Virus record (IMG/VR): IMGVR_UViG_3300032038_000024
Span: 37,689 to 101,688 of that record
Strand: one strand, 5' to 3'
DNA length: 64,000 nt
DNA from: a virus
Taxonomy: Duplodnaviria > Heunggongvirae > Uroviricota > Caudoviricetes
Position numbers and translations under genes: made by a program. Each line of letters starts with the position of its first letter. The first letter of the stretch is position 1. Shown in pieces: positions 16,172-63,418 of this stretch. Under the pieces are notes generated by a model that was not told where the DNA came from, did no database searches, and saw nothing but the letters and a program-made list of their open reading frames with translations.

Positions 16172-17860
16172 TTATGCATTTAAGCCACGAAGTCTCTTCA
16201 TGTTAGCAATAATGCTGTTTTGATAATTTTCAACAGGATTCTTTGATTCTACAACTGGCTTTGTTTCTTCAGCTTTCTTGCCAAAATCAACATTAGCCCA
16301 GAATGATTCAAGTACACCTTCTTTTGTGAAATCATACATCTTTGAACTTCTAATGATGTTCTGTTGTGCAGCTTCATTAAGTAATTCCCATGATGGACGA
16401 TATTCAGCTGGCATGTTTTCTACAACATAAACTCCTTTGTACTTGTTTTCAGCATTATGTTCTTCAACAATCTTTTGAACATCTGTATTGCCTTCAGCAG
16501 CTATAGATTCAAGTAAACCATCAATTTCATCAAGGCGACCAGCCTTTTGAGATTCCATAAATGCAGAAACATTTTCGTTTACTTTTTGTTCAATAATTGC
16601 TGATTGTTCTGGAGTATATTCTTCCATTAACCAGTTCTCCATAGTAGGAGCAAATTCTTCAGTAATCCAACCTTGAATTTCTGGAGCAAATTCTTCAGTT
16701 ACCCAGTTTTGTAATTCAGGTGAATATTCTTCAACAATCCAGTTTTGTACTTCTGGAGCAAATTCTTCAACTACCCAATTTTGTACTTCAGGTGCAAATT
16801 CCTCTACAACCCAATCTTGTACTAATGGAGCAAATTCTTCAGTTACCCAAGACTTCATTTGAGAAGTAAATTCATCATTAATCCAAGTCTTAACAGCTTC
16901 CTGAATTTCTTCTGATGAATTACCATTCATCTTTTCAGTAATAACTGTATTTAAACCTTCATTGATTTTGTTTTGGAAATCAGGTGCAAATTCTTCAGTA
17001 ATCCACTTTTGAATACCTTCATAATTTGTAGGCTTAATAGACTTTACTTCGTTTAAAGATTCTTGAGCTACATGAAGCTCAGCTTCGAGAGATGTTACTT
17101 TCTCAGTAAGCTTATCAATAGCTTCTTTAAGTTCTTTCATATCGATGTCTTTATTGTCATTATTTTTGTTATCGTCTTTCTTAGGATCATCCTTAGGATC
17201 TCCCTTAGGTTCTTCCTCAGGTTTGTCATCATTCTTAGGTTCGTCTTTTGGCTTGTCGTCGTTCTTATCTTTATCATCGATAAGATCATCACCTTCAACA
17301 ATAACCCAAGTTTCATTACTATCTTCAAGACCTTCATTCAAGCATTCAAGAGTTTGATTAGTCTTTAATGTAAGCTTAGCTTGACTGAAACCAGGAGTAC
17401 CTACCAAGTCATATGTCTGTATAGTTGATAAAGTTACACGACCTTCATTAGTAATTGTACCTGCACCACGTGACGAAATGAAAAGTGGAAGACCGCCTTC
17501 AACGATAGCTTTAGCAATTTGACCTTTTGGAGTATTTAAAAGAACAATAGAACCTGTAATTGTACCATCTTCATTCATCTGAATATCTTCAATTTTGTGA
17601 GAAACATTCTCCAAATTAATATTCATTGAATTAGGATGTTCCAATTCTCCAGGACAACCTGATTCTTTTATTTTCTTTTGTAAAGATTCAACCATCTGTG
17701 CATAATTGTCTTTATCATACACACGATTATTTTGATTCTTTATTCCACAAACTCCAAATACACCTTGCAAACGCATTAAACCATCGCCTTTAGCTTCTGA
17801 CACTTGAAGATTTGAAACGCTTCCCAAAGTCTCATAAACCAAGCAACGTTTATCTGTCAT
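16172..17860 (-). CDS. prohead core protease (gp21/S77-like) fused to a repeat-containing scaffold-like C-terminal region
   Basis: GELEHP...ISSRGAGTITNEG versus gp21 GELNHP...VSSRGLGSLTDTNEG. Then a KD/PE-rich linker, a coiled coil and 8 tandem 12-aa repeats. Confidence 0.7.
   Translation of the reverse strand: MTDKRCLVYETLGSVSNLQVSEAKGDGLMRLQGVFGVCGIKNQNNRVYDKDNYAQMVESLQKKIKESGCPGELEHPNSMNINLENVSHKIEDIQMNEDGTITGSIVLLNTPKGQIAKAIVEGGLPLFISSRGAGTITNEGRVTLSTIQTYDLVGTPGFSQAKLTLKTNQTLECLNEGLEDSNETWVIVEGDDLIDDKDKNDDKPKDEPKNDDKPEEEPKGDPKDDPKKDDNKNNDNKDIDMKELKEAIDKLTEKVTSLEAELHVAQESLNEVKSIKPTNYEGIQKWITEEFAPDFQNKINEGLNTVITEKMNGNSSEEIQEAVKTWINDEFTSQMKSWVTEEFAPLVQDWVVEEFAPEVQNWVVEEFAPEVQNWIVEEYSPELQNWVTEEFAPEIQGWITEEFAPTMENWLMEEYTPEQSAIIEQKVNENVSAFMESQKAGRLDEIDGLLESIAAEGNTDVQKIVEEHNAENKYKGVYVVENMPAEYRPSWELLNEAAQQNIIRSSKMYDFTKEGVLESFWANVDFGKKAEETKPVVESKNPVENYQNSIIANMKRLRGLNA
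16611..16898. repeat. 8 tandem 36-nt in-frame coding repeats (protein W-V/I-V/T-EEFAPE-V/I-QN)
   Basis: Read directly: GGAGCAAATTCTTCAGTTACCCAGTTTTGTAATTCA-type units with period 36. Confidence 0.85.
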
Positions 17861-29466: not shown

Positions 29467-29970
29467 TTAATAATATGATGTTTTTAATTTTGATCTATCA
29501 TATTCATATATATCAGCAATTAAACCATTTAATGCAGCAAATATTTCTTTATATGTATAAGATTTACCACTTGAATGATATCCACCATCTGTTTTTAATA
29601 TCCAATCACATTTGTCAACACCATTTTTAATATCAAATAATGTTTCAAAACCATCAGCAGTTAACATTAAAACACCTTTATTATTACGTACGAAAATAAT
29701 AACATTGCTTCCACCAGTTGCAGTTTCTTTATGTTTTTTACGAAGATCTTTTAATACTTCAGGAGTAAGTTCAATATTATCTTCAACTAATTTTGTTATT
29801 GCATTTACTTTTCCATTTATACTTATAGGACATTTTTCAGTTTTAAATGCCTTTATTGCTTCTTTAGTATCTTTATATTTTGGTGTAGCATCATTAATAT
29901 AATAATCATTACTTTGTAATTTATTTTCATTAATTAATGATTCTAAAATAAAATTTTTAATATCCTGCAT
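29467..29970 (-). CDS. hypothetical protein with the shared N-terminal motif (MQDIKNFILE)
   Basis: 167-aa ORF. Confidence 0.45.
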   Translation of the reverse strand: MQDIKNFILESLINENKLQSNDYYINDATPKYKDTKEAIKAFKTEKCPISINGKVNAITKLVEDNIELTPEVLKDLRKKHKETATGGSNVIIFVRNNKGVLMLTADGFETLFDIKNGVDKCDWILKTDGGYHSSGKSYTYKEIFAALNGLIADIYEYDRSKLKTSYY

Positions 29971-36705: not shown

Positions 36706-37176
36706 TTATTTAAATTTTTCGTTAGCATATTCAACAAATTTCTTCATCCATTCTTCATCTATTGAAACTAATCTTTCAATTCTATATTGTCCGTAATCAC
36801 CAAGAGCTAAATAATCACCACAAAAAGGTCCATATTGAATATATGTTTCTGTTAATTTTTGTGACCAATTTGATATTTGTAATCCAAAATGATTTTTATC
36901 TATAAATACAAATTTATTATTTTTATCATAATCAGTCATTTCCCATTCTTCAGCATCAGATCTATGTTTATTTGAAATATTAGATACTTTTCCAATTCTA
37001 TAGTTTAATTTTGAATGATTAAATATATATAATTTATCACCTTTTTTTAATTTATCCCATAAAGTATAATCAAATTCTTTAATTTCTTTTTTATTTTCTT
37101 TAACAAAACTTTCAATTAAATTGTTTAATTGACTTAACTTTATTCCTTCATTAATATATGTTACTATGTTCTTCAT
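36706..37176 (-). CDS. hypothetical protein with the shared N-terminal motif (MKNIVTYINE)
   Basis: 156 aa. Confidence 0.45.
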   Translation of the reverse strand: MKNIVTYINEGIKLSQLNNLIESFVKENKKEIKEFDYTLWDKLKKGDKLYIFNHSKLNYRIGKVSNISNKHRSDAEEWEMTDYDKNNKFVFIDKNHFGLQISNWSQKLTETYIQYGPFCGDYLALGDYGQYRIERLVSIDEEWMKKFVEYANEKFK

Positions 37177-37182
37177 AAATAA

Positions 37183-37689
37183 TTAATATCTATTTGTAAC
37201 TATTATTGTGTCTTTATTATTCTTGAATTTTTCTTTTACTTTATCAAGACCTAATTGCATATCATCAATAACTTTTTCAGGTATATGTTCTTTACGACGA
37301 TCTTTACAAATTTCTTTAGGAGTATCAATAATGATTATTTGAACATTAGCATTAGCTTTCTTTAATTTATCATAATAATTTTGTACTCTTCCTGCTTTAA
37401 TATTTGTATTATCAATAACAAAATCTCTTCTATCTTTAATTGCTTTATCAATTCGTTCTAAACAAATTCTTGTAACTTCCTTTTCTTGTTCTGAATTACC
37501 AATTGCTTTATGGTTGTCATCCTTCATTATACCAAGTTCAACTCTAATTGAATCTTGGTTTATAATTTCGATATTCTTTGGAAGTTCTTCTTTAATATAT
37601 GTTGACTTACCTGAACCTGGAAGCCCGCACATAATCCAAACATTAAATGGATTTTGTTTTTCAAATATATAAGCTATTAATGATTTCAT
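37183..37689 (-). CDS. polynucleotide 5'-kinase (T4 Pnk kinase-domain homolog), with the shared N-terminal motif
   Basis: CGLPGSGKST (T4 GCPGSGKST), INQDSIR (INRDDYR), IDNTNIKAGR (SDTNLNPERR). N-terminus MKSLIAYIFE. Confidence 0.6.
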   Translation of the reverse strand: MKSLIAYIFEKQNPFNVWIMCGLPGSGKSTYIKEELPKNIEIINQDSIRVELGIMKDDNHKAIGNSEQEKEVTRICLERIDKAIKDRRDFVIDNTNIKAGRVQNYYDKLKKANANVQIIIIDTPKEICKDRRKEHIPEKVIDDMQLGLDKVKEKFKNNKDTIIVTNRY

Positions 37690-38893: not shown

Positions 38894-39352
38894 TTAACTA
38901 ATTCTTGATTTAATTTCTGATAATTTAGTTTTTGGTGGAAAAGTTATTTTTGCTTTTTCTAATCTTTCATCAGTATGTTCGCTATATGTCTTTCCTTTAT
39001 TTAAATAATCGCTAAGTGTGTCTGCATCATTCATTAAGTCTCCATCATAAGGTTCTTCTTCTTTTGAAATACCATGTCCATTACCTCTACCTCCACCTAT
39101 AATAGTATTCAAATAAAATTTTTGTGCTGATGCATGACCTTGGTCATACCCTAATGTATACCAAGCGTAATTTCTAAATACAACGATATCTTTAGACTTA
39201 TCGTCAGGATAACATACTAATGAATATTTCATTTTAGGATCTAACCTATGAGCCCATCGGTCTTTAATTTTTATCCACCCAAAAGACCAACCTTTACAAT
39301 CAGAAAAAACAATTTTTTTACTTTCTGTTATATATTCATTAATATTCTTCAT
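38894..39352 (-). CDS. hypothetical protein with the shared N-terminal motif (MKNINEYITE)
   Basis: 152 aa. Confidence 0.45.
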   Translation of the reverse strand: MKNINEYITESKKIVFSDCKGWSFGWIKIKDRWAHRLDPKMKYSLVCYPDDKSKDIVVFRNYAWYTLGYDQGHASAQKFYLNTIIGGGRGNGHGISKEEEPYDGDLMNDADTLSDYLNKGKTYSEHTDERLEKAKITFPPKTKLSEIKSRIS

Positions 39353-39363
39353 ACAATATTAAA

Positions 39364-39684
39364 TTATTTTTGCAATGTTTGTGCAATACAAAATGATATA
39401 TCTGCTGCATTCAAATTCTTCATATCAACACATTCTTCCCAACCAAAATGTTTAACTATTTTTACTAAATCATTTTGATTAAGTTCTTTCATATAATCAA
39501 ATAAGAATTGCCCAGCAGCAAACCAAACTTCTTTATCTTTACCAGTATATTTTTCTTCGTCAGAATCCCATTTACAATCAGGATGTTCACTTGATAACTG
39601 ATTGATAATTGTTTGTATCATTTCAACACAACCTGCACCAGTTGTTTTCTTTTCTTCATTTATATATTCATTAATTGACTTCAT
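39364..39684 (-). CDS. hypothetical protein with the shared N-terminal motif (MKSINEYINE)
   Basis: 106 aa. Confidence 0.45.
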   Translation of the reverse strand: MKSINEYINEEKKTTGAGCVEMIQTIINQLSSEHPDCKWDSDEEKYTGKDKEVWFAAGQFLFDYMKELNQNDLVKIVKHFGWEECVDMKNLNAADISFCIAQTLQK

Positions 39685-53654: not shown

Positions 53655-53837
53655 TTATCTATGTTTAATATTATAAATAATTCCACCAAGAGTTGCAGCA
53701 ATAACCATTGATATTAAAAACAATGTCATTAATACATACCATATTGCAATATTAACCCAATATTTTGGAGATGAACCTTCATTCATATAACGAAAATCTT
53801 CCCAAAAATCTTTAATAAAAAATTTAATTTTATTCAT
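53655..53837 (-). CDS. small single-TM protein (holin/pinholin-like by context)
   Basis: WVNIAIWYVLMTLFLISMVIAATLGGIIY; downstream of the endolysin gene. Confidence 0.35.
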   Translation of the reverse strand: MNKIKFFIKDFWEDFRYMNEGSSPKYWVNIAIWYVLMTLFLISMVIAATLGGIIYNIKHR

Positions 53838-53843
53838 GTTATA

Positions 53844-54521
53844 TTAATTCAACATTAGTTTATGTTCATCATATCGTCTCTCAATATGTCCTGGAGCAGA
53901 AATTCTACTTGTTTTAACAGCAGCAATTGTAAAATTCAAATCATTCTGATTTATAAATCCTGGAGTATTCTTATCATATCTGCATCTTGACCAACGATCC
54001 CAAAATTCAGTCAATGTTACACCACGCTCACCACAATTATAAATCAAACTACCAAGACCATCAATAAATCCCTGTGAATAAATAAATCGTCTGTCATGTT
54101 GTTTAATAAGTCGATTGATTGCATCGTTTACCCATTCAATATCCTTTTCAAACAATTCATCTGCTTTCTTTTGTGTAATATGTTCTAGACTTTCACCAGG
54201 TTGTATCTGATGACCCCAACCAACAGAACGACGTTGTGGATCCGGATCATTATAAGCATTCAATACACAAGTCTCCTTTGACTTAATAAAATCTTTACCA
54301 GTTTTTGAAAGCCTATAAGTATTAGGACGTTTAAGATGTTCAACATTTACAGTCTGTTCAGAAATATTGAACATGGCTGAAGTATTGAACAATGAATCTG
54401 TTTTCACAAAATTTGTATTATTTTCAGCTGACATGAAACTGGTACAAAACAGCTGATAAAATATTGCTAAACAAAAAATTACTGAAAGAAATCTGTTTGG
54501 TGTAATTTTACTATTCATCAT
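53844..54521 (-). CDS. endolysin, GH24 lysozyme with an N-terminal signal/SAR-like hydrophobic segment
   Basis: RRSVGWGHQIQPG...ITQKKADELFEKDIEWVNDAI aligns with T4L TIGIGH...[21 protein letters not shown]. N-terminal LSVIFCLAIFYQLFCTSF. Confidence 0.6.
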   Translation of the reverse strand: MMNSKITPNRFLSVIFCLAIFYQLFCTSFMSAENNTNFVKTDSLFNTSAMFNISEQTVNVEHLKRPNTYRLSKTGKDFIKSKETCVLNAYNDPDPQRRSVGWGHQIQPGESLEHITQKKADELFEKDIEWVNDAINRLIKQHDRRFIYSQGFIDGLGSLIYNCGERGVTLTEFWDRWSRCRYDKNTPGFINQNDLNFTIAAVKTSRISAPGHIERRYDEHKLMLN

Positions 54522-54533
54522 ATTTATTGTTTG

Positions 54534-54572
54534 TTACAAATATAATATAGTAAAATCTTTATAAAATTCAAA
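54534..54572 (-). promoter_or_regulatory. class-2 promoter-like element
   Basis: − sense TTTGAA-N12-TTTTACTATATTATATTTGTAA, 12 nt before the ATG. Confidence 0.4.
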
Positions 54573-54581
54573 TATTATTAA

Positions 54582-55241
54582 TTATTTCTTAAAATATGTA
54601 TTATAGTAAATTTCAATTCCTTTCATATGAATACATATTGTATCATTTAAACCTCTTGGTGATAACAAATAATCAACATCTTGTTTATTATCCATAAAGA
54701 AATTTTCAGATAATGTTGCTGCACAATTAGCACCTCTAATTATTTGATAATTTGCTTCCCAGTCTCTATCACCATCTTGTTTATCTTCACGAATTGGTTT
54801 TTGTTTAGTTTGACCCTTAAAAGAGTCTATATATTGTTTGTTTTGTCTTAATACGAAATCAGCTCCTTCATATAAGCATTCAGCAAGTTTATCAGATATA
54901 TTTTGTCCTTTTGTTGTCCATGTTGACCATCCACGTCCTGTCATCCAAGCACCATTTCCTGATGCATTTACATGAACAGATATCATAATACAATTTGCTG
55001 CTCCATATTTTCTACAATATTGATTGATACGATTAACACGAGTATCTAAACTAATATCTGTATTTTCAGGAGTAATCTTAATAGGAGTATATTCTTTATA
55101 ACACTTAAGACGGTCATATAATGCATCTACAACTTCTCTACAGAATTTCCATTCAAAGAATTGATCTCCATTTGCTAACTTTGGAGAACGCTTGCCTGGA
55201 GTATTACACCCATGACCATTATCAAGTAATATATATAACAT
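54582..55241 (-). CDS. N-acetylmuramoyl-L-alanine amidase (Amidase_3 family)
   Basis: LLDNGHG..(E)...ISVHVNASGNG...ENFFMDNKQD match the DxGHGG, SIHADA and E-GF-N-D motifs. Confidence 0.65.
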   Translation of the reverse strand: MLYILLDNGHGCNTPGKRSPKLANGDQFFEWKFCREVVDALYDRLKCYKEYTPIKITPENTDISLDTRVNRINQYCRKYGAANCIMISVHVNASGNGAWMTGRGWSTWTTKGQNISDKLAECLYEGADFVLRQNKQYIDSFKGQTKQKPIREDKQDGDRDWEANYQIIRGANCAATLSENFFMDNKQDVDYLLSPRGLNDTICIHMKGIEIYYNTYFKK

Positions 55242-55429
55242 TATTTCATCAATTTTTTATTAAACTGTATAAGATAACAACCTCTATTTGATGGTTCGGT
55301 TGTTAAACCATGAAAATTGCAAATATAAGATCCATTTACCATTTTTTTATGGTCATTAAATAATTTGCAATTTCCGCATATATCTGTATTCATTTTATTG
55401 TCATCTATATATTTATAAAGATAACAAAT

Positions 55430-55843
55430 TTACTCGAAAACTATTTTTGACTCTCTTTTAACATTTTCAATTGAGTCAGAACTATGCATAGCATTTTTCA
55501 TATCGTTCTTTCCCCATTTATCTCTAACTTTATCTTTAAGTGAATCCATTTCTTCAATTGGATCTTCACATTCCTTATAGCATTTTACGCATAAGCATTC
55601 TCCAGATGACATATATTCAACAAGATCATCATAGAAGTCTTTTCCCTTATGCATCATATATAATTGTTCAGCTTGCTCTTTTGTTAATTTTAATTTCTTT
55701 TTATCAAGAATATCCCATTCATCTTCTTCTAACATCTTGAGCCAAGCTTCTTCATGTTCTAAAAATTCAGGTTTTAATATAACGAATGAATTTACATAGT
55801 CTTCTTTCGATTCGTTAATTATGTAGTCTTTTAATGATATCAT
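55430..55843 (-). CDS. hypothetical acidic protein with the shared N-terminal motif (MISLKDYIINE)
   Basis: 137 aa. Confidence 0.45.
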   Translation of the reverse strand: MISLKDYIINESKEDYVNSFVILKPEFLEHEEAWLKMLEEDEWDILDKKKLKLTKEQAEQLYMMHKGKDFYDDLVEYMSSGECLCVKCYKECEDPIEEMDSLKDKVRDKWGKNDMKNAMHSSDSIENVKRESKIVFE

Positions 55844-55859
55844 AATATCTTTATTTAAT

Positions 55860-55905
55860 CTATATTTAAAAATAACAAAAAGAGTAACCGAAGCTACTCT
55901 TTTAC
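55860..55905 (-). promoter_or_regulatory. promoter/terminator cassette, copy 1
   Basis: − sense hairpin AGAGTAGC-TTCG-GTTACTCT, then TTGTTATTTTTAAATATAG. Identical to 58009-58050 except for 1 nt. Confidence 0.55.
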
Positions 55906-55920
55906 TTATATTTATATGAT

Positions 55921-57984
55921 TTATTGTTCTACCTTAGTCCAATTATACTTACCTAAGTAATAATATCCTGTATCCATCCATGTATCATAACCAGTACTAC
56001 CACTTGGCACTGTTAATGTACCACCCATTTTCACATCTTTGAATGTATTGTCATATATAATAGGTGCAGTCATAGCATTAGACACTATATTTGTAAGACC
56101 ACTACAAGCAGCGAAAGCACTAACAGCAATGTTTGTAACACTACTACCTATGGTTACACTTGTTAAACCAGTACAATCTGCGAAAGCAGCACTTCCAATA
56201 GATGGTGTAGAATCACCTATAATTACTGTTTCAAGATTAACCCAACCAGCTCTAAAAGAAGAACTTAACTCACATTTTGCATTGTAGTTTAAAACATTTA
56301 AAGCATCAGTACTTCCGAAAGCTCCCATACCAATACTTGTAACACTATCTGGTATGGTTATACTTGTAATACCACCACAATTAGCGAAAGCACTAACACC
56401 AATACTTGTAACACTATCTGGTATATCTATACTTGTTAAACCACTACAATTATAGAAAGCACCATCATTAATAATTGTAACATTATTGCCTATAGTTATA
56501 CTTGTTAAACCAGTACAACCTACGAAAGCACCTTCACCAATGCTTGTACATAATTTTCCAATTTCAACGTTTACAAGTGTTGACTTATAATCTTGTATCA
56601 TAGTAGATGTTAATTCACCACTATCTTCAAGCTCAACAACACTGTCGTCATTTAATGTAAGTTTGCAGAAGAAAGAAGGTTCAACTTTAGTCCAATTATA
56701 CTTACCTAAGTAGTAATCTTCAGCACTCATCCATGTATCATATCCTGTACTACCACTTGGTACTGTTAATGTACCACCAGTTTTTATATTTTGGAATGTA
56801 AAACTTTCTATTGTAGGTGCAGTTATTGCATTAGATACTATACTTGCTAAACTACTACAATCTCTAAAAGCAAAATTACCAATACTTGTAACACTATCTG
56901 GTATATCTATAATTGTTAGACTACTACAATCTTGGAACGCATAATTACCTATACTTGTAACACCACTGCCTATTGTTACACTTGTTAAACTGCTACACCC
57001 ATTAAAAACATTAGCATCAATGCTTGTAACACTATCAGGTATATCTATACTTGTTAAATTAGTACAGCCGTAGAAAGCACTATCATCAATGCTTGTAACA
57101 CTATCTGGTATATCTATACTTGTTAAACCTATACAATTACTGAAAGCAGAATAACCAATGCTTGTAACACTATCAGGTATAATTGTGTTTTTACAACATT
57201 GTATAATTGCATTAGTACTTGTATTAATAATTCCATTACAATTGTTACGTGAGTCATATACTGTATTATTACTATCAACTGTCATACTTGTAAGATTATC
57301 ACAACCTGAGAAAGCATTATTTCCGATGCTTGTAACACTACTACCTATAGTTACACTTGTAAGACCATTACAACCGCGGAAAGCATACTGACTAATGTTT
57401 GTAACACTATCTGGTATAATTATACTTGTTAAACCACTACAATTTTCAAAAGCATAGCTATTAATATTTGTAACACTATCAGGTATATCTATACTTGTTA
57501 ATGAACCACAACTATCAAAAGCATTATTTCCGATGCTTGTAACACTACTACCTATAGTTACACTTGTAAGACCACTACAGTTATTGAAAACATTATAACT
57601 AATATTTGTAACACTATTTGGTATTATACACTCTATTAAATTACTATTATAAAACACAGGAGCTTGATTACCTAATTTTGTTTCATCATATAACTCATAC
57701 TTAACTGTATGTTCACCTGTTGTGTTAAATGTATAGGCAGCTACAAGTTCATCTAACATAACACCATCAATTTCCATTGACTTAAATATATTCTCCTCAA
57801 AGTTTGTTCTTAATGTTGTAGGAGAAGATGTACTTGTTACATTATACTTACATACAAGCTTTGTTTCTGGTACATAAGGATTGTAACTCACACCCATGGT
57901 TTCTTCTATCAAAGACACATTAGGCAAATCTAATGTTGCTGCATTATAAGCTGCAGCTGTTTCAAATAATGTTATATATTTCAT
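55921..57984 (-). CDS. BspA-like leucine-rich-repeat (LRR_5) surface/adhesin-type protein with an internal tandem duplication
   Basis: About 20 repeats of IPDSVTSIGNxAFxxCxxLTSx. Two copies of the LRR block plus a GGTLTVPSGSTGYDTWM...YYLGKYNWTKVE module; at DNA level 55937-56687 repeats 56687 onward. Confidence 0.7.
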   Translation of the reverse strand: MKYITLFETAAAYNAATLDLPNVSLIEETMGVSYNPYVPETKLVCKYNVTSTSSPTTLRTNFEENIFKSMEIDGVMLDELVAAYTFNTTGEHTVKYELYDETKLGNQAPVFYNSNLIECIIPNSVTNISYNVFNNCSGLTSVTIGSSVTSIGNNAFDSCGSLTSIDIPDSVTNINSYAFENCSGLTSIIIPDSVTNISQYAFRGCNGLTSVTIGSSVTSIGNNAFSGCDNLTSMTVDSNNTVYDSRNNCNGIINTSTNAIIQCCKNTIIPDSVTSIGYSAFSNCIGLTSIDIPDSVTSIDDSAFYGCTNLTSIDIPDSVTSIDANVFNGCSSLTSVTIGSGVTSIGNYAFQDCSSLTIIDIPDSVTSIGNFAFRDCSSLASIVSNAITAPTIESFTFQNIKTGGTLTVPSGSTGYDTWMSAEDYYLGKYNWTKVEPSFFCKLTLNDDSVVELEDSGELTSTMIQDYKSTLVNVEIGKLCTSIGEGAFVGCTGLTSITIGNNVTIINDGAFYNCSGLTSIDIPDSVTSIGVSAFANCGGITSITIPDSVTSIGMGAFGSTDALNVLNYNAKCELSSSFRAGWVNLETVIIGDSTPSIGSAAFADCTGLTSVTIGSSVTNIAVSAFAACSGLTNIVSNAMTAPIIYDNTFKDVKMGGTLTVPSGSTGYDTWMDTGYYYLGKYNWTKVEQ

Positions 57985-58008
57985 ACAATAAAATTATATT
58001 TATTAAAT

Positions 58009-58050
58009 CTATATTTAAAAATAACAAAAAGAGTAGCCGAAGCTACTCTA
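58009..58050 (-). promoter_or_regulatory. promoter/terminator cassette, copy 2
   Basis: Perfect 8-bp stem AGAGTAGC-CGAA-GCTACTCT plus CTATATTTAAAAATAACAA. Confidence 0.55.
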
Positions 58051-58052
58051 AT

Positions 58053-61000
58053 TTATGATATTCTAATTGTACTTGTATTCTTAAACTGATGTTGAATATC
58101 TCTGTCCAACGAATATTTAACTGTTACTTTATAATAACCACGTTCATATTTTGCATCGTTCTTAGGTAATGACAATATTGTCATTTCTCCATTAGATTCA
58201 AATGATGTATCTGTAGACATACCTAATGACATTGGATGTATATTCCATTTTGAACTTATACTTGCATTAAACGGTAATCTATCATTATTATGTAAATAAC
58301 AACAAACAATATCATCAGTCTTAAATTGATTGAAACCTTCTGAAGTATTAAATTCAAGTCTATTTATCAAATATTCTTCTGAACTCTTTTCATAATTCAA
58401 TATATACTTATTCTTTAATATCTTCTTTTTATCTGCTTCATTTCTTAATTTCAAATCTTCATTTGTTCTTATCTTATCGCAAGTTTCTTGAGAAATGTAT
58501 AATCCATACCAATAATTTTCATCATGCATCAAATAGAAGTCATAATTCAAGTATGTATCTAATTTAATTTCTTCATCATATTCATAAACACTATGTAACA
58601 ATACATTCTTCAATTCTTTGTTTTCAAAATACGAATCATATACATTAAATTTCAACTTAAAGAAATCATTATACAAATTGAATATATAAGCATTATCATT
58701 ATCTCCATACTCAAATTCTTGATTAAGATATTTTGTTTTAACAATATTCTTACCAGATTCTAATGGTTTATATTCTAATCGTTTTTCATTTACACTTATT
58801 TTAATAAATTTTGGAATTATATAAATATCTGTTCTATCATTCCAATTTATATTAGTTTCACTATTTATTGAAATAAATACTGTTATCTTCTTTTCATTTC
58901 CTGTAAATTCAAATTCTGTTCCTACTTCAGTATAATTAGTAACATTTCCATTTTCATCAATTACTTCAGTATGCATTGTTGCATATTGTTCAATATTAGT
59001 AATAAATTCCATTCTATATTTGCCCTTAATACCTGTTAAATCTTTTATAAGATAATTCTTAAATCTATATCTTGCAATATCTTCATCTTTGGCATATCTA
59101 TTACCTTTGAAATTATTTAGATAATTATCTAAATTAGCTTTAATTGTTTCATAAGAATCATTTTCGTTATATACATATCTTTCAATTTCATTCAAATAAG
59201 ATGGTAATGATTCTAAAGATAATTTATCTGCATTATACCAATACATAGAAGGATTTTGTACTGATACTAAATGATTATAAGAATTATCTTTATACATATA
59301 TTTATCATCATATTTTATTAATTCAACAATGTATTTAGATCCATTAATCTCAATATTCAAATAATATGTATTATCTTTAACAGATATAATTGAATTATTT
59401 TCTATATTGTTTTCTTTTAAGTAATTAAGATAATCACTTAAAATATAGAATCTATTTCTAACAATATGAGCTTTATGATAATAGAATGTTACAATTATCT
59501 TATTATATTCAATATTATCAATTTGATTTAATGAAATTCCTTCAATCCTATTATCTAATTCATCAAAGAATGCAATTGAATAACTTAATTTATTTGCATA
59601 ATGTTTTGATAAATCATTTAAATCACATATTTCTTTATCATCAAAACAATAAATATTTCCTTCTTCATATTCTTTAACATAAATATCAATATCTTCAAAT
59701 CCTTTATTTAAACTTTTAGATAATTGTCTATTTGCATAAAAATCATTAAGTGTCTTATATGTTATTGCACCAACACATGTTTCTTTACTTTCGATATAAT
59801 ATGTAAATTCATTTGTATCAAATTCATATAAATTAGGTACTTCCCAAATATGCATTGCTGATGTTCCTCTAATTGGATCATAACATTTTCTTGCATCACG
59901 TTTAACATAAAATCCTAATCTATCTTTAATTTCAATTACTTGTGATGGTGCTAATGGTTTATGACCATCTGCTAATGGGGATGTCCAGTATAATCCATAA
60001 GTATCTGGGAATCTTGTATCAATACTTGAATCTAATGTACCTTGTATAAATATTTTCAATTGTTCATCATTGTTAAGATCTTTTGTAACACCATGTGTAA
60101 AACGAAGACCATCAATATGCATATCAATATTATTATGGAATATTAATATGTTATTTTCAGTAATTACATTTTCATATATTCCAAATAAATGTAAAGAATT
60201 TTTATACTTAGGGTTATTTGGTAAGTTAACTAATGTTGAATATCTTGAATAAATCTTTTCACTATTTGCATAAAGTTTATCATATATTTCATAAGTATGA
60301 ATCACATCCCCATTTTCATCATATTCTTTGTATGTATTATCTAAATAATCATATTTAATATCAATTGTATCATATTTTAAGAACTCTTCAGTATCTTCAG
60401 TTTTGAATAACACTTCAGATTCTATTTCAGAAGCATTTAATATTTCATAATTTTTATCATCATTTGAACTATCAAATGTTTCTGCTAAAATAAATATATC
60501 ACCTTGATATGCACATAACAATATTGTATCATTATCATTAAGATAATCAGGGAAGAAACTAATATCATAACCTATTAAATCTTTATGTATATATACTTCA
60601 TGATTGTTTCCTAATGTATCTTTATAAATAATATATTGATAAAATTCACCATCAGTCAAAGTACCATCCATATATAACAAGTTATGATCTAAATGATATT
60701 TTAATATGGTTTGGAAATTAACATCAAAATTAATTTCATTCATATCAACTAATTGCTTATTATGCATATAAGCATTAAACATTACTTTATTGTTTTTATC
60801 ATCTAAACCTCTAATTTGTTTAAATGGTGATAGCAAATTATAATGATCCTTAAAGAATTGATATATATGTTCTGCTTCAGATAAATTAAATGATTGAATC
60901 CATGTTTCTTGATTCCATTCATTATGTATATCTTGATTTAAGTTATATGTATTATATAAGTATTGATTAATTGCTTGTAAATCATTTTTAATAAACACAG

Positions 61001-63326
61001 GATATCCCCAATTATTTGGACATATTAATATAACTGGGTTATCTATGTTGATATATTTCAATTGTCCATTATAAACAGTTGCATTATTAATGTTTAATAA
61101 TTTATCTTCTGAATAATTATAAACATAATATGTTGATGATTCTTCATTATCCCAGTTAATTGTCCAAGATAGTTTTATTTCATTATTAAACTTATCTAAT
61201 TCTTTAATATATGAATTATCTAATAAATAACAAACATAATCATTTGGTAAATTAAATATATAACTGTTAAATATTGATGGCTGTTTAAATAATGAATTAC
61301 TATAATCTAAATTTTGATTATTTATTTTATATGTATCATTAGCACCACAGAATATTAAATTATGAATACTATTATCATTTTTATTTGTTATCTTACTAAA
61401 TAAGTAATTACGATCATTGAAATAATAACGATACTTAAGCGTTCCAAAATCAATTGTAGGATTATGAATCTTTAACTTAAAATCATATTCATACCATTTA
61501 TTGTTTACTAACAACTTAATAATAAAATCATTATTTACCCAATATTCAAAATATTTTGTTTCAACATTATTTTCAGTTGTAATAATATTTAACTTTTTAG
61601 GATATATAATAAAGTTACGATATGTTTTATTTTCACATTGATAGAAGTTAAAATGTGATTCATATAATACTTCATTATTTGCTGCCTTTTGTAATAAAAG
61701 AACACAATTAAAATATCCTTTATTAAATTCATTATTAATAAATTGAACTGGAATATTTACACAAGTATCATTAAGATAATACCATTCTCTATTATCTTCA
61801 TCAATATTTGTTGTTCCTAATTCAAATTCATTAAAGTATTCATCTATATAATGTATTTGCTTTGTAAAATAATGTAATCCGTTACCTTTGAATTCAACTT
61901 CTCTTTTATCATTCAAGACAATAGATGGCTGATTTTCAATAATATGTAATGAATTTGTTAATTTAATATTATTTGCAAATACACGGTATCCTAATGATGT
62001 ATGATGAATATTTAAGTGTATTGGTAAAAAGTATTTCTTATAATAATAAGCAAGACATACTAATTTAACACCTAATTCATTAAATGAAAAATCAAAATAA
62101 GGTTTCCAATACCAATATTTTTCATCATCATTTTCAATAGGCATATCATGATTTCCTATTTTGATTTTCTGATAATAATCTAATAATGAAAGCATCTTAG
62201 GTCTGTTTTCTCCATAAAAGAATGATTTATTACTCATATTCTTACTTAATGATGCTAATGATAAATCATCCCAACCACCTTCATTATCACAGAATGTAAA
62301 TGGATATCTTTTATCAGTTTCTTTATTTATCATTATCATTAAAGAAACAAATGCAGTTGCAATAAATGTCTTAAATGATTCAATAATATCATTTGAAATA
62401 TCAAAATAGTCTAATATGTATTGTTGCTTAAAATCATTATCAGTTCTTAATAACTTTGATATTGTTATTCTATCTCCATAACCAAACCATTTTAATGATT
62501 TAATTGCAGAATCGAAGTTACCAATTTCTCCACGAATACCCATATAGTTAAGCATATATTCTTTCATTTTTTCATTGAATAATGCTTCATTATATTCATC
62601 ATTATATAAACTTTCTGCATAAACAGATTTAAGTATATCCTTTGGTAAAGATACACCCATATTACGTCCATTAATTACAAGTTCTTCATATTCATCAATA
62701 AATTCACCACCTACTGATATATAACACCATTCATCAGTATTATTTGAATTGTTATGAATATGTATCATTAAATTTGTTATCCAAGTACCTGCTTCTTTTG
62801 ACATAGCAATTGGATAAATAGGAATCATAAGATAATTAATTGTAGTACCTGTAATATCTTGTTCATCAGCATATTTAATTTCCTCAGTTTTTACACAATA
62901 AAGATCTTCGTTAGTTAATCTTTCTTTTAAGAAACTATATTTTTCATTATATTCAATTGAACTTCCATTTGTTATAGTCTCGAACATATTCAAGTCAACA
63001 TAATCTGTCAACTTAAAGTCATCTTTAGATATTGATTTTTGTAATTCTCTTGAAGATATTAATTTGTAAACATTTGAATTATTAACATAAATTTCAATAT
63101 CTAATGCTGAATTATAATCATCTTCTAAATCTTCAATATCAAAATTCTTATTTAATTCATATAATGCATATATTGGTTTTGAATAGAAATTATTAACTGA
63201 CAACTTTGATGTATTATTTCCATCAATCCAAAATACATATGAATATTCATCATATTCATAACCAATAGGTTTCTCACTATATGAAGGTAAACTAAATATG
63301 TGACCTGTATTATCTACAAATTCCAT
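58053..63326 (-). CDS. giant (1757 aa) Asn/Tyr/Lys-rich hypothetical protein
   Basis: Uninterrupted 5.3-kb ORF in an AT-rich genome, flanked by a promoter and terminator cassette on each side. Confidence 0.55.
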   Translation of the reverse strand: MEFVDNTGHIFSLPSYSEKPIGYEYDEYSYVFWIDGNNTSKLSVNNFYSKPIYALYELNKNFDIEDLEDDYNSALDIEIYVNNSNVYKLISSRELQKSISKDDFKLTDYVDLNMFETITNGSSIEYNEKYSFLKERLTNEDLYCVKTEEIKYADEQDITGTTINYLMIPIYPIAMSKEAGTWITNLMIHIHNNSNNTDEWCYISVGGEFIDEYEELVINGRNMGVSLPKDILKSVYAESLYNDEYNEALFNEKMKEYMLNYMGIRGEIGNFDSAIKSLKWFGYGDRITISKLLRTDNDFKQQYILDYFDISNDIIESFKTFIATAFVSLMIMINKETDKRYPFTFCDNEGGWDDLSLASLSKNMSNKSFFYGENRPKMLSLLDYYQKIKIGNHDMPIENDDEKYWYWKPYFDFSFNELGVKLVCLAYYYKKYFLPIHLNIHHTSLGYRVFANNIKLTNSLHIIENQPSIVLNDKREVEFKGNGLHYFTKQIHYIDEYFNEFELGTTNIDEDNREWYYLNDTCVNIPVQFINNEFNKGYFNCVLLLQKAANNEVLYESHFNFYQCENKTYRNFIIYPKKLNIITTENNVETKYFEYWVNNDFIIKLLVNNKWYEYDFKLKIHNPTIDFGTLKYRYYFNDRNYLFSKITNKNDNSIHNLIFCGANDTYKINNQNLDYSNSLFKQPSIFNSYIFNLPNDYVCYLLDNSYIKELDKFNNEIKLSWTINWDNEESSTYYVYNYSEDKLLNINNATVYNGQLKYINIDNPVILICPNNWGYPVFIKNDLQAINQYLYNTYNLNQDIHNEWNQETWIQSFNLSEAEHIYQFFKDHYNLLSPFKQIRGLDDKNNKVMFNAYMHNKQLVDMNEINFDVNFQTILKYHLDHNLLYMDGTLTDGEFYQYIIYKDTLGNNHEVYIHKDLIGYDISFFPDYLNDNDTILLCAYQGDIFILAETFDSSNDDKNYEILNASEIESEVLFKTEDTEEFLKYDTIDIKYDYLDNTYKEYDENGDVIHTYEIYDKLYANSEKIYSRYSTLVNLPNNPKYKNSLHLFGIYENVITENNILIFHNNIDMHIDGLRFTHGVTKDLNNDEQLKIFIQGTLDSSIDTRFPDTYGLYWTSPLADGHKPLAPSQVIEIKDRLGFYVKRDARKCYDPIRGTSAMHIWEVPNLYEFDTNEFTYYIESKETCVGAITYKTLNDFYANRQLSKSLNKGFEDIDIYVKEYEEGNIYCFDDKEICDLNDLSKHYANKLSYSIAFFDELDNRIEGISLNQIDNIEYNKIIVTFYYHKAHIVRNRFYILSDYLNYLKENNIENNSIISVKDNTYYLNIEINGSKYIVELIKYDDKYMYKDNSYNHLVSVQNPSMYWYNADKLSLESLPSYLNEIERYVYNENDSYETIKANLDNYLNNFKGNRYAKDEDIARYRFKNYLIKDLTGIKGKYRMEFITNIEQYATMHTEVIDENGNVTNYTEVGTEFEFTGNEKKITVFISINSETNINWNDRTDIYIIPKFIKISVNEKRLEYKPLESGKNIVKTKYLNQEFEYGDNDNAYIFNLYNDFFKLKFNVYDSYFENKELKNVLLHSVYEYDEEIKLDTYLNYDFYLMHDENYWYGLYISQETCDKIRTNEDLKLRNEADKKKILKNKYILNYEKSSEEYLINRLEFNTSEGFNQFKTDDIVCCYLHNNDRLPFNASISSKWNIHPMSLGMSTDTSFESNGEMTILSLPKNDAKYERGYYKVTVKYSLDRDIQHQFKNTSTIRIS

Positions 63327-63350
63327 TAAGTGTAAGTTATTGTTTATTTA

Positions 63351-63370
63351 CTATATATAAAAATAATTTA
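63351..63370 (-). promoter_or_regulatory. phage-type promoter
   Basis: − sense AATTATTTTTATATATAGTAAAT, about 25 nt from the ATG. Confidence 0.45.
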
Positions 63371-63390
63371 ATTTATTCAATTTCAAGAAA

Positions 63391-63418
63391 ATAAAAGAGG
63401 TTCTTGAGAACCTCTTTA
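63391..63418 (-). terminator. rho-independent terminator overlapping a stop codon
   Basis: AAGAGGTTC-TTGA-GAACCTCTT, a 9-bp stem with a U-run in − sense. Confidence 0.6.

What the first reader, a model, noticed from the sequence alone, without database searches (positions are those of the whole stretch)
55921..57984. LRR_5 (BspA-type) protein with an internal tandem duplication of the whole module
The protein consists of two consecutive copies of the same domain series: an N-terminal domain, then LRR_5 repeats (IPDSVTSIGNNAFSGC..LTS), then a conserved C-terminal module GGTLTVPSGSTGYDTWM...YYLGKYNWTKVE. The DNA shows the duplication with a period of about 750 bp (55937 versus 56687).
BspA-like LRR proteins are cell-surface adhesins in Bacteroidetes, Treponema and some protists. 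In a phage this points to a virion decoration or receptor-binding protein, or to a host-mimicking surface factor. The second LRR block is diverged, consistent with specificity diversification.
Basis: partly seen in the sequence, partly recalled or inferred. Interest (0 to 1): 0.55.

Follow-up and report, generated by a model that had tools for sequence, protein, structure and literature searches.

The report
Swappable two-module LRR protein, jumbo phage
A large rumen-type phage carries a real BspA-type leucine-rich-repeat protein made of two different binding modules joined in frame behind a phage-specific 40-residue N-terminal tag, and the gene lies in a swap-in/swap-out slot bounded by repeated terminator elements, which suggests (but does not show) an exchangeable adhesin on the virus particle.

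Summary
ORF 55921-57984 (-) encodes a 687-aa protein with a very strong LRR_5 hit (E 6e-119). A 275-nt DNA repeat lies at a 753-nt period.

The "internal tandem duplication" reading is only partly right. The protein is a ~40-aa leader followed by two complete, separately capped LRR_5 solenoids with different N-caps and repeat counts. The two C-caps (64% aa identity) are less alike than each is to caps in other phages (71-73%). Relatives carry 1-4 such modules. This looks like concatenation of two paralogous cassettes, not a recent duplication, and it is not an assembly artefact.

New context:
- The gene occupies a hypervariable island between a conserved 1757-aa gene and an NDK-like gene.
- The island is bounded by direct repeats of a terminator plus AT-rich element.
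- Close relatives hold 0, 1, 3 or more, or 4 cassettes there. Empty sites keep one repeat copy, and deletion scars exist. This resembles T4-type PeSL shuffling.
- The leader replaces the signal peptide of bacterial homologs. It heads about 3,000 protein clusters, mostly LRR_5 or lectin-like.

Best guess, about 45% and untested: a dispensable, exchangeable virion-displayed adhesin. Interest is moderate.

The parts
55921..57984 (-). Complete ORF, 687 aa plus stop: leader followed by two capped LRR_5 modules.
   Evidence: ORF listing. Pfam LRR_5 E=5.9e-119. Identical protein P0001 on a 118,154-bp contig. AF2 model with mean pLDDT 84.6.
57865..57984 (-). Leader, aa 1-40 (MKYITLFETAAAYNAATLDLPNVSLIEETMGVSYNPYVPE). 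It is family-specific and is not a signal peptide.
   Evidence: Nearly identical 117 nt head every cassette gene in L001 and L007. The 95%-identity flank shared with L007 ends at window 57868. A leader profile finds 2,977 clusters, nearly always at residue 1. pLDDT is about 50.
57631..57864 (-). Type I N-cap of module A, aa 41-118 (KLVCKYNVTSTS...EHTVKYELYDE...).
   Evidence: Shared with P0005, P0040, P0073, L008 and L022. Beta strands with pLDDT about 90.
57286..57630 (-). LRR block A1: five 23-aa LRR_5 repeats, aa 119-233.
   Evidence: Repeat register. TRF period 69.
57187..57285 (-). Hairpin insert, aa 234-266 (MTVDSNNTVYDSRNNCNGIINTSTNAIIQCCKNT).
   Evidence: A 56-aa spacing between repeat cores. 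The same element occurs in L001, L007 and P0035.
56842..57186 (-). LRR block A2: five 23-aa repeats, aa 267-381.
56680..56841 (-). C-cap of module A, aa 382-435 (..NAITAPTI..GGTLTVPSGSTGYDTWMSAEDYYLGKYNWTKVE). It runs into module B with no stop codon.
   Evidence: It is one copy of DNA repeat D2 (56679-56953).
56569..56679 (-). Type II N-cap of module B, aa 436-472 (PSFFCKLTLNDDSVVELEDSGELTSTMIQDYKSTLVN).
   Evidence: The same element follows the leader directly in stand-alone genes (L001:8887, L007:11561 and 12244) and in P0004, P0009 and P0075. It is 66% identical to L004/L007 LRR218 over aa 436-569.
56089..56568 (-). LRR block B, aa 473-632: about 6 repeats with an irregular insert at aa 556-586 (GSTDALNVLNYNAKCELSSSFRAGWVNLETV).
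   Evidence: The insert is shared with the single-module gene of L008.
55924..56088 (-). C-cap of module B, aa 633-687 (...GGTLTVPSGSTGYDTWMDTGYYYLGKYNWTKVEQ), followed by the stop codon at 55921-55923.
   Evidence: It is the other copy of D2 (55926-56200).
57979..58049 (-). Upstream copy of the 71-nt flanking direct repeat: terminator hairpin (58030-58049) plus an AT-rich stretch running into the LRR start codon.
   Evidence: the repeat finder D3, 86% identity. The 31-nt core is unique to these two places, with 0 expected by chance. Terminator scan.
55830..55900 (-). Downstream copy of the flanking repeat: terminator hairpin (55878-55903) plus an AT-rich stretch running into the start of the NDK-like gene.
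   Evidence: Empty-site relatives L025 and L029 keep a single copy.
58053..63326 (-). Conserved left border gene, 1757 aa, function unknown.
   Evidence: No Pfam, PHROG, NCBIfam or PDB hit. Family members lie on contigs up to 468 kb. Both ends are conserved and the centre is variable.
55430..55843 (-). Conserved right border gene, 137 aa, NDK-like.
   Evidence: Pfam NDK E=2.7e-21. Used as an anchor to find 30 related loci.

Best explanation
Shown:
- The gene encodes a signal-peptide-less phage protein: a ~40-aa family-specific N-terminal leader followed by two complete BspA-type LRR_5 solenoids. Each solenoid has its own N-cap and C-cap.
- The two solenoids are different cassette types joined in frame. 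They are not a recent tandem duplication. The same leader-LRR family has 1 to 4 such modules in other large phages.
- In this genome the gene is the only occupant of a hypervariable island between a conserved 1757-aa gene and an NDK-like gene.
- The island is bounded by direct repeats of a terminator hairpin plus AT-rich element.
- Closely related phages carry 0, 1, 3 or more, or 4 cassettes there. Empty sites have exactly one repeat copy. Some sites keep deletion scars.

Inferred:
- Cassettes are gained, lost and exchanged by homologous recombination. The repeated regulatory element, the near-identical leader DNA and the conserved C-cap DNA serve as homology arms, as with PeSL cassettes in T4-type phages.
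- The two-module gene arose by fusing a type I cassette to a following type II cassette, with loss of the stop codon, spacer and second leader.

Most likely function (inferred, not tested): a dispensable, exchangeable virion-displayed adhesin, meaning an auxiliary receptor-binding or decoration protein. The leader would dock it to the particle. The two LRR surfaces would bind host-cell or environmental ligands, giving two binding specificities on one polypeptide.
For: Architecture:
- The AF2 model has pLDDT 84.6.
- The closest solved folds are JCSG LRR_5 cell-surface proteins 4fs7, 4gt6 and 4h09.

Not a recent duplication:
- Cap A versus cap B is 64% identical, against 71-73% to caps elsewhere.
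- The type II N-cap is the first module elsewhere.

Island polymorphism:
- With flanking genes at least 95% identical, the window has one 687-aa gene, L022 one 449-aa gene, L008 one 470-aa gene, L007 four genes, L001 at least three, and L025 none.
- Sequence shared with L007 is 95% identical up to the end of the leader (57868) and again from just after the stop codon (55917). It is only 70-79% identical in between.

Repeats and scars:
- Empty sites L025 and L029 have one hybrid copy joining the 1757 stop codon to the NDK start codon.
- The scar in L010 keeps two copies plus the last 42 nt of an LRR gene (..YYLAKYNWTKVEQ*). L007 has a leader start fused to the 3'UTR.
- The PeSL precedent is described in PMC2839356.

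Adhesin reading:
- There is no signal peptide, whereas 86 of 120 LRR_5 homologs have one.
- The same leader heads a lectin-like protein in L007.
- Of 104 leader proteins of at least 140 aa, 66 carry LRR_5, 5 carry Lcl_C or Fib_succ_major, 1 carries Big_2, and none has a recognised enzyme or toxin domain; about a third have no Pfam hit at all.
- Leader genes lie among tail genes in other phages: gp19, T4_baseplate, Phage_tail_C and a GH2 giant protein.
- In the window the gene lies on the same strand as the structural and lysis genes, just upstream of the endolysins.
Against: - There is no direct evidence that the protein is in the virion.
- The leader is predicted with low confidence (pLDDT about 50) and has no detectable homology to known fibre or spike anchors.
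- No trimerisation domain or beta-helix typical of phage fibres is present.
- The neighbouring 1757-aa protein could not be identified as a tail or baseplate part.
- The gene is absent from this site in close relatives, so it is not an essential receptor-binding protein.
- Hypervariable islands bounded by promoter/terminator cassettes in T4-type phages mostly hold early, non-structural ORFans. That pattern fits an intracellular accessory role equally well.
- The AT-rich half of the repeat is not a recognisable promoter and is not a window-wide motif. Only two copies exist in the 64 kb.
Confidence: 0.5

Rival explanations
1. Intracellular accessory protein of a hyperplastic region, for example an anti-defence or host-takeover factor. 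On this view it is not a virion part, and the LRR solenoids bind a host cytoplasmic protein.
For: - No signal peptide.
- The gene is dispensable, fast-turnover and varies in copy number between near-identical phages.
- It is bounded by terminator/AT-rich cassettes like the PeSL-flanked non-essential ORFans of T4-type phages.
- The same upstream element also precedes the NDK-like gene.
Against: - The payloads attached to the leader are fold types typical of extracellular binding proteins: LRR_5, Lcl_C/FISUMP lectin-like and Big_2.
- Leader genes cluster with tail genes in other phages.
- The closest homologs and solved structures are bacterial cell-surface proteins.
Confidence: 0.25
2. One reading: a recent internal tandem duplication of one whole module (period about 750 bp), followed by divergence of the second copy.
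For: - A 275-nt direct repeat at 753-nt spacing, 75% identical.
- Both halves end in the same C-cap motif.
Against: - The N-caps are of two different types.
- Only about 275 of the 753 nt are recognisably repeated.
- Cap A versus cap B identity (64%) is below their identity to caps of other proteins (71-73%).
- Module B's N-cap region is 66% identical to a stand-alone gene in L007.
- The closest relative phage, L022, has a one-module gene.
Confidence: 0.1
3. Capsid-packaged, ejected protein. The leader would act as a capsid-targeting propeptide, like the T4 CTS of internal proteins IPI-III, and would be cleaved by the prohead protease.
For: - A conserved N-terminal tag on diverse payloads is the logic of the T4 CTS (PMC3012670; PMC8442874).
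- The leader contains L-x-E motifs (LFE, LIE).
- The window encodes a prohead protease homolog.
Against: - The window has a separate set of at least 8 ORFs whose N-termini (MKSINEYINE and similar) resemble the T4 CTS MKTYQEFIAE far better than the LRR leader does.
- The leader is about 40 aa, not about 10.
- Rigid LRR solenoids of up to 1,199 aa are unlikely cargo for ejection.
- The payload types are extracellular binding folds.
Confidence: 0.08
4. Assembly artefact: a chimeric or collapsed join of two strain variants at the conserved C-cap sequence.
For: The last ~100 nt of the C-cap are highly conserved between cassettes, which could mislead an assembler.
Against: - The join creates a new in-frame junction with no stop codon, spacer or leader.
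- The same kind of junction is found in independent assemblies and samples: P0005/L001, P0004, P0009, P0075, P0002, P0003.
- The modules are too diverged (45-64%) for a collapse.
Confidence: 0.02

Closest known systems
BspA-type LRR_5 cell-surface proteins of gut and oral bacteria (Pfam PF13306; solved examples 4fs7, 4gt6, 4h09, TpLRR 6mlx, PcpA 4cp6)
   Same: - The same 23-aa repeat (..IPDSVTSIGxxAFxxCxxLTS..), including the hairpin insert and the VP.GS..Y..W-type C-cap.
- Pfam E=6e-119.
- PDB sequence hits down to 2e-59, and Foldseek hits with TM (target-normalised) up to 0.65.
- 40-56% identity over the LRR region to proteins in Bacteroidales and Clostridia MAGs.
   Different: - No signal peptide or lipobox.
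- No anchoring domain (T9SS CTD, SLH, dockerin, Big_2, Listeria-Bacteroides repeat), unlike the bacterial hits.
- It carries a phage-specific 40-aa leader instead.
- It has two capped solenoids in tandem and is encoded in a lytic-type jumbo phage.
[quoted passage not shown] 2010, PMC2839356; PMC4122927)
   Same: - A composite stem-loop terminator plus AT-rich or promoter-like intergenic element is directly repeated on both sides of a non-essential, highly plastic gene.
- Related genomes differ by insertion, deletion or replacement exactly at these elements.
- Empty sites keep one copy.
   Different: - Only two copies occur in 64 kb, rather than about 50 dispersed copies.
- No convincing sigma-70 or Bacteroidota promoter consensus was found.
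- Additional coding homology arms (leader, C-cap) are involved.
- Mini-circles were not tested.
Phage receptor-binding proteins with a conserved N-terminal anchor and exchangeable C-terminal binding part (tail fibres, tailspikes, fibritin; own knowledge; fibritin C-terminal swapping in PMC3797505)
   Same: - A constant N-terminus with hypervariable, horizontally exchanged distal parts.
- Several paralogs per genome share one anchor.
- The position is next to tail or lysis genes.
   Different: - No sequence or fold similarity of the leader to known anchors.
- The predicted fold is a monomeric LRR solenoid rather than a trimeric fibre.
- Virion location is unproven.
T4 internal proteins with a capsid targeting sequence (MKTYQEFIAE; PMC8442874, PMC3012670)
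   Same: A short conserved N-terminal tag on a polymorphic set of payloads in a plastic locus.
   Different: - The leader is four times longer and unlike the CTS.
- CTS-like decapeptides occur on other ORFs of this window, not on this one.

Membership tests
LRR_5 / BspA-type leucine-rich repeat (PF13306) | Profile match above the curated gathering score. | tested here: met
   391.9 bits against a cut-off of 27.7, E=5.9e-119, 5 stretches.
LRR_5 / BspA-type leucine-rich repeat (PF13306) | A 23-residue repeat forming a right-handed solenoid like the solved LRR_5 proteins. | tested here: met
   16 repeat cores at 23-aa spacing. AF2 pLDDT 84.6. Foldseek hits to 4fs7, 4gt6 and 4h09 at E 1e-10 to 1e-14.
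Bacterial BspA-like cell-surface adhesin | N-terminal Sec or lipoprotein signal peptide. | tested here: not met
   The N-terminus MKYITLFETAAAYNAATLDLPNVS has no hydrophobic core, whereas 86 of 120 homologs have one (this was a heuristic check, not SignalP).
Bacterial BspA-like cell-surface adhesin | A cell-envelope anchoring or sorting domain (T9SS CTD, SLH, dockerin, Big_2 stalk or similar). | tested here: not met
   Only LRR families were found by Pfam. Bacterial hits carry PF18962, PF00395, PF00404, PF09479 or PF02368.
Bacterial BspA-like cell-surface adhesin | Demonstrated ligand binding (fibronectin, fibrinogen, coaggregation). | not testable with these tools
   This needs recombinant protein.
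PeSL-type mobile regulatory cassette | A stable stem-loop acting as a terminator in an intergenic position. | tested here: met
   Terminator-like hairpins followed by T-runs at 58049-58030 and 55903-55878 on the minus strand. Four were found against 0.5 expected. Function was not assayed.
PeSL-type mobile regulatory cassette | A strong sigma-70-like promoter within the cassette. | tested here: inconclusive
   Only weak 9/12 matches were found. No genes here have Shine-Dalgarno sequences, and the host promoter type is unknown.
PeSL-type mobile regulatory cassette | Many dispersed copies concentrated in hyperplastic regions. | tested here: not met
   Only two copies occur in the 64-kb window. 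The rest of the genome was not seen.
PeSL-type mobile regulatory cassette | Indels and replacements between close relatives have their end points at the cassettes. | tested here: met
   Occupied sites have two copies, empty sites one, and scars lie between two copies.
Phage receptor-binding or decoration protein | Presence in the virion. | not testable with these tools
   There is no proteome. No cultured relative was found: INPHARED megablast gave none, and tblastn found only 24 uncultured records, none with the leader.
Phage receptor-binding or decoration protein | A conserved attachment part combined with a variable distal binding part. | tested here: met
   The leader is 85-95% conserved at DNA level among paralogs and relatives, while payloads are 70-79% identical or unrelated.
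T4-type capsid targeting sequence cargo | An N-terminal ~10-aa CTS-like motif (MKTYQEFIAE) ending in a protease site. | tested here: not met
   The leader does not match. Other window ORFs do.

The most novel reading that the evidence does not exclude
The ~40-aa leader (M-K-Y-[IL]-K-x-F-E...Y...L-P-N-V-S...V-x-Y-N-P) may be a previously undescribed universal docking tag of rumen and gut jumbo phages. It would plug interchangeable binding modules (LRR_5 solenoids singly or in strings of 2-4, lectin-like FISUMP/Lcl_C domains, Ig-like domains) onto the virion. The repertoire would be re-dealt by cassette recombination at repeated terminator elements. In some lineages it would also be switched by poly-C slippage at the leader-payload junction. 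Together this would be a modular, rapidly reprogrammable multi-adhesin system.
Probability: 0.3. Interest if true: 0.7.

Novelty: new variant of a known kind. Interest (0 to 1): 0.45.

Why it matters
- LRR_5 'BspA-like' genes are annotated in many uncultured phage genomes, but nobody knows what they do.
- This analysis shows that in a group of jumbo phages they form a defined family. They share a common N-terminal tag instead of a secretion signal, are built from concatenable capped modules, and sit in a slot where cassettes are swapped between near-identical genomes.
- If they are virion adhesins, they would be a new structural class of phage host-recognition or adherence proteins, and a natural plug-and-play scaffold.
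- If they are intracellular, they would be a large new class of LRR effectors.
- Either way, the leader gives a simple handle for finding them: about 3,000 clusters at 50% identity.
- It also sets up a direct experiment: is the leader retained, and is the protein in particles?

Tried and rejected
- Megablast of 53800-63400 against INPHARED gave no match.
- A viral-contig scan with the LRR protein found nothing, because its peptide patterns were too specific. Anchoring on the border genes worked instead.
- A word-index search with the leader profile returned only ORFs of 31-80 aa. This was uninformative for payloads but exposed the poly-C frameshifts. The exhaustive profile search was then used.
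- The genome-contig scan gave LRR-only matches in many phyla, so no host could be inferred.
- The 1757-aa neighbour has no Pfam, PHROG, NCBIfam or PDB hit.
- AF2 of residues 1-620 of the 1757-aa protein gave pLDDT 57, so no fold search was run on it.
- The AT-rich half of the flanking repeat is not a recurrent upstream motif in the window, so it cannot be called a promoter class.
- The idea that L022's cap is orthologous to cap B rather than cap A was rejected. The long BLAST alignment was carried by the downstream flank, and the caps are about equally similar.
- P0361 (2,101 aa, 15 partial matches to the leader profile) is an unrelated bacterial repeat protein and a spurious hit.
- Literature searches for BspA or LRR_5 in phages found no functional study.
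Full report
**What is there**

The window is AT-rich (29% GC). It encodes a 1047-aa tail sheath, a major head protein, a prohead protease, a helicase and two endolysins, so it is part of a large myovirus-type phage. The finding's protein is identical to P0001, which lies on a 118,154-bp contig. The neighbouring 1757-aa protein is 97% identical to one on a 214-kb contig, and its family reaches contigs of 468 kb. This is therefore a jumbo-phage lineage. The sample and contig names of the relatives look like ruminant gut and rumen metagenomes; I did not verify sample metadata. No INPHARED record is similar at the DNA level.

**Check of the observation**

- ORF 55921-57984 on the minus strand encodes 687 aa.
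- Pfam LRR_5 scores 391.9 bits, E=5.9e-119.
- TRF and the repeat finder show 69-nt (23-aa) units.
- A 275-nt direct repeat lies at 55926-56200 versus 56679-56953, 75% identical, spacing 753.

The C-cap motif occurs twice, ending at aa 435 and aa 686. The raw observation is correct.

**Anatomy**

| Residues | Element |
|---|---|
| 1-40 | Leader |
| 41-118 | Type I N-cap |
| 119-233 | Five repeats |
| 234-266 | Hairpin insert |
| 267-381 | Five repeats |
| 382-435 | C-cap A |
| 436-472 | Type II N-cap (PSFFCKLTLNDD..) |
| 473-632 | About six repeats with an irregular insert at 556-586 |
| 633-687 | C-cap B |

The AF2 model has mean pLDDT 84.6, but only about 50 for the leader. Its pTM of 0.59 fits two domains without a fixed mutual orientation. 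The closest solved structures are the functionally uncharacterised LRR_5 cell-surface proteins 4fs7, 4gt6 and 4h09, followed by TpLRR and PcpA.

**Duplication or concatenation?**

Among the best homologs, a subset shares both the leader and the C-cap, and the capped unit occurs 1 to 4 times:
- One module: P0040 and P0073.
- Two modules: P0005, P0004 and P0009.
- Three modules: P0002, P0003 and P0016.
- Four modules: P0026.

The type II N-cap of the window's second module is the first module in P0004, P0009, P0075 and P0011. It also directly follows the leader in stand-alone genes of related phages (L001 356 aa; L007 218 and 356 aa).

The two C-caps of the window protein are 64% identical. Each is 70-73% identical to caps in other proteins. 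At the DNA level the last ~100 nt of the cap are conserved in all cassettes.

So the 753-nt 'period' reflects family-wide conservation of the cap, not a recent internal duplication. The join KVE|PSFFCKL equals the end of one cassette (..KVEQ*) fused to the start of the next payload (..YVP|PFFCKL), with loss of the stop codon, spacer and second leader. Independent assemblies show the same kind of join (P0005/L001: TVE|PPFSCKL), which also argues against an assembly artefact.

**The locus**

Using the two border genes as anchors, I compared about 20 related contigs. The content between the 1757-aa gene and the NDK-like gene varies widely:

| Locus | Content of the island |
|---|---|
| Window | One 687-aa gene |
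| L022 (flanks 94-99% identical) | One 449-aa single-module gene, 65% identical to module A |
| L008 | One 470-aa gene |
| L027, L031, L033, L034 | One gene each, 265-329 aa |
| L001 | At least three genes (356, 741, >=425 aa) |
| L007 | Four genes: three LRR genes plus a 245-aa lectin-like protein with the same leader |
| L023, L026, L028 | A non-LRR gene with a divergent leader-like start |
| L012 | A DUF285 gene |
| L025, L029, L009/L035 | Nothing (63-65 nt gap) |

Identity between L007 and the window is 95% up to window 57868, the last base of the leader. It is 95% again from 55917, just after the stop codon. In between it is 70-79%. No relative matches the window's payload at more than about 85% in any 60-nt bin, and the best matches come from different relatives.

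**Flanking repeats**

A 71-nt direct repeat (86% identity) brackets the gene at 57979-58049 and 55830-55900. Each copy is a terminator hairpin (AGAGTAGCTTCGGYTACTC followed by a T-run) plus an AT-rich stretch that ends at the next start codon. The 31-nt core occurs only at these two places in the window, with 0 expected by chance.

All occupied sites in relatives have one copy after the 1757 stop codon and one after the last cassette. The empty sites L025 and L029 have exactly one copy, which joins the 1757 stop codon to the NDK start codon.

Two scars were found:
- L010/L030 is a deletion scar. It has two copies flanking the last 42 nt of an LRR gene (TATTACTTAGCCAAATATAATTGGACTAAGGTAGAACAATAA, which reads YYLAKYNWTKVEQ*).
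- L007 has a leader start fused to a cassette 3'UTR.

This is the pattern described for PeSL cassettes in T4-type phages, where recombination between repeated promoter/stem-loop elements inserts, deletes and replaces non-essential genes (PMC2839356). Two differences stand out. There are only two copies in this 64 kb, and the AT-rich half is neither a recurrent motif nor a clear promoter.

**The leader**

All cassette genes of a phage share nearly identical leader DNA. Among the 120 best LRR_5 hits, 86 begin with a signal-peptide-like sequence and 13-15 begin with the leader. In the phage proteins, the leader therefore takes the place of the export signal.

A profile of the leader finds 2,977 clusters (at 50% identity) at E<=1e-3 and 840 at E<=1e-10. 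The match almost always starts at residue 1-9. Of 104 such proteins of at least 140 aa, the Pfam content is:
- LRR_5: 66.
- Lcl_C: 4.
- Fib_succ_major: 1.
- Big_2: 1.
- No Pfam domain: the rest.
- Enzyme, nuclease or toxin domain: none.

The contexts examined are all phage-like, on contigs up to 358 kb, and several lie among tail genes:
- Between gp19 and T4_baseplate in L017.
- Next to Phage_tail_C in L016.
- After a 1,875-aa GH2 protein in L015.

Pfam, NCBIfam and PHROGs have no model for the leader.

**Function**

What is shown is the fold, the modular family, the missing export signal, the dispensability at this site and the cassette dynamics. What is inferred is the role.

I favour a virion-displayed, exchangeable adhesin at about 45%, for four reasons:
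- The design is a constant N-terminus plus swappable binding domains.
- The payload types are extracellular-type binding folds.
- Leader genes lie near tail genes in other phages.
- The window gene sits at the end of the structural and lysis strand.

The main rival, at about 25%, is an intracellular accessory or anti-defence protein. Plastic islands bounded by regulatory cassettes usually hold such genes in T4-type phages.

A capsid-targeting role of the leader is less likely, at about 8%. The window has another set of ORFs with N-termini that closely resemble the T4 CTS MKTYQEFIAE (MKSINEYINE, MKNINEYITE and others), and the LRR leader is unlike them.

**Novelty**

LRR or BspA-like proteins are already annotated in uncultured phages (BFVD hits; 24 INPHARED records). 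The literature library holds no functional work on them.

The domain family and the shuffling principle are known. Three things appear undescribed in the libraries searched:
- The leader-defined family.
- The concatenated capped modules.
- The well-resolved cassette slot.

I therefore classify the finding as a new variant of a known kind, with moderate interest.

Noticed in passing
window 36706-37176, 37183-37689, 38894-39352, 39364-39684, 39977-40996, 41771-42919, 43401-44045, 55430-55843, 29467-29970 (all minus strand): At least 8-9 ORFs begin with a shared decapeptide-like motif: MKSINEYINE, MKNINEYITE, MKSLIAYIFE, MKNIVTYINE, MISLNEYSQE, MKHFNEYFFE, MKSLIVYINE, MISLKDYIINE. This closely resembles the T4 capsid targeting sequence MKTYQEFIAE (PMC8442874). 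The ORFs include the NDK-like gene next to the LRR gene and a P-loop kinase-like ORF, and the window has a prohead protease homolog (16172-17860). It may mark a set of capsid-packaged proteins. This was not tested.
   Followed up: partly
L020:6100-6145 and L017:6100-6150: In other large myophages the leader ORF stops after 47-50 aa at a poly-C tract (C11 and C9) at the leader-payload junction. The lectin-like payload (..YFQWGD..) continues in another frame. Many such leader-only ORFs exist; one cluster has 39 members. This is either homopolymer sequencing error or slipped-strand phase variation. The window gene has no such tract.
   Followed up: partly
window 54582-55241 (-): The Amidase_3 endolysin gene between the NDK-like gene and the lysozyme gene is present in some close relatives (L022, L023, L027) and absent from others (L007/L004, L005, L025). 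It is a second presence/absence polymorphism, about 200 nt downstream of the NDK-like border gene (55430-55843) of the LRR slot.
   Followed up: partly
window 58053-63326 (-): This 1757-aa protein has no match in any family library or in the PDB. Homologs are restricted to very large phage contigs (up to 468 kb). Residues 1-600 and 1500-1757 are conserved and the centre is hypervariable. AF2 of residues 1-620 was poor (pLDDT 57).
   Followed up: partly
L012:11509-11871; L026:88-846 (also L023, L028): The same slot can hold other repeat or unknown genes. One is a 120-aa DUF285 (Mycoplasma/PARCEL-type repeat) protein. Another is a 250-261-aa protein starting MKHIKKFNNGDLLDTYKKSNFVTPHLYL, which looks like a divergent leader.
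   Followed up: no
L002:8082-9087: A 54-aa leader-only ORF is followed by a leaderless LRR ORF. This looks like a frameshifted LRR cassette, suggesting rapid decay as well as exchange.
   Followed up: no
L007:15388-15640: About 250 nt of comparatively GC-rich non-coding sequence lies between the lectin-like cassette and the NDK-like gene. It has no counterpart in the window, and its origin is unknown.
   Followed up: no
window, all gene starts (e.g. 45343-45699): No Shine-Dalgarno-like sequence precedes any of about 47 genes; the upstream regions are A/T-rich only. ORF 45343-45699 starts with a lipoprotein-like signal (MKKYFVLILISLVLFTSC). This is compatible with a Bacteroidota-type host, but the host remains unknown.
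   Followed up: no
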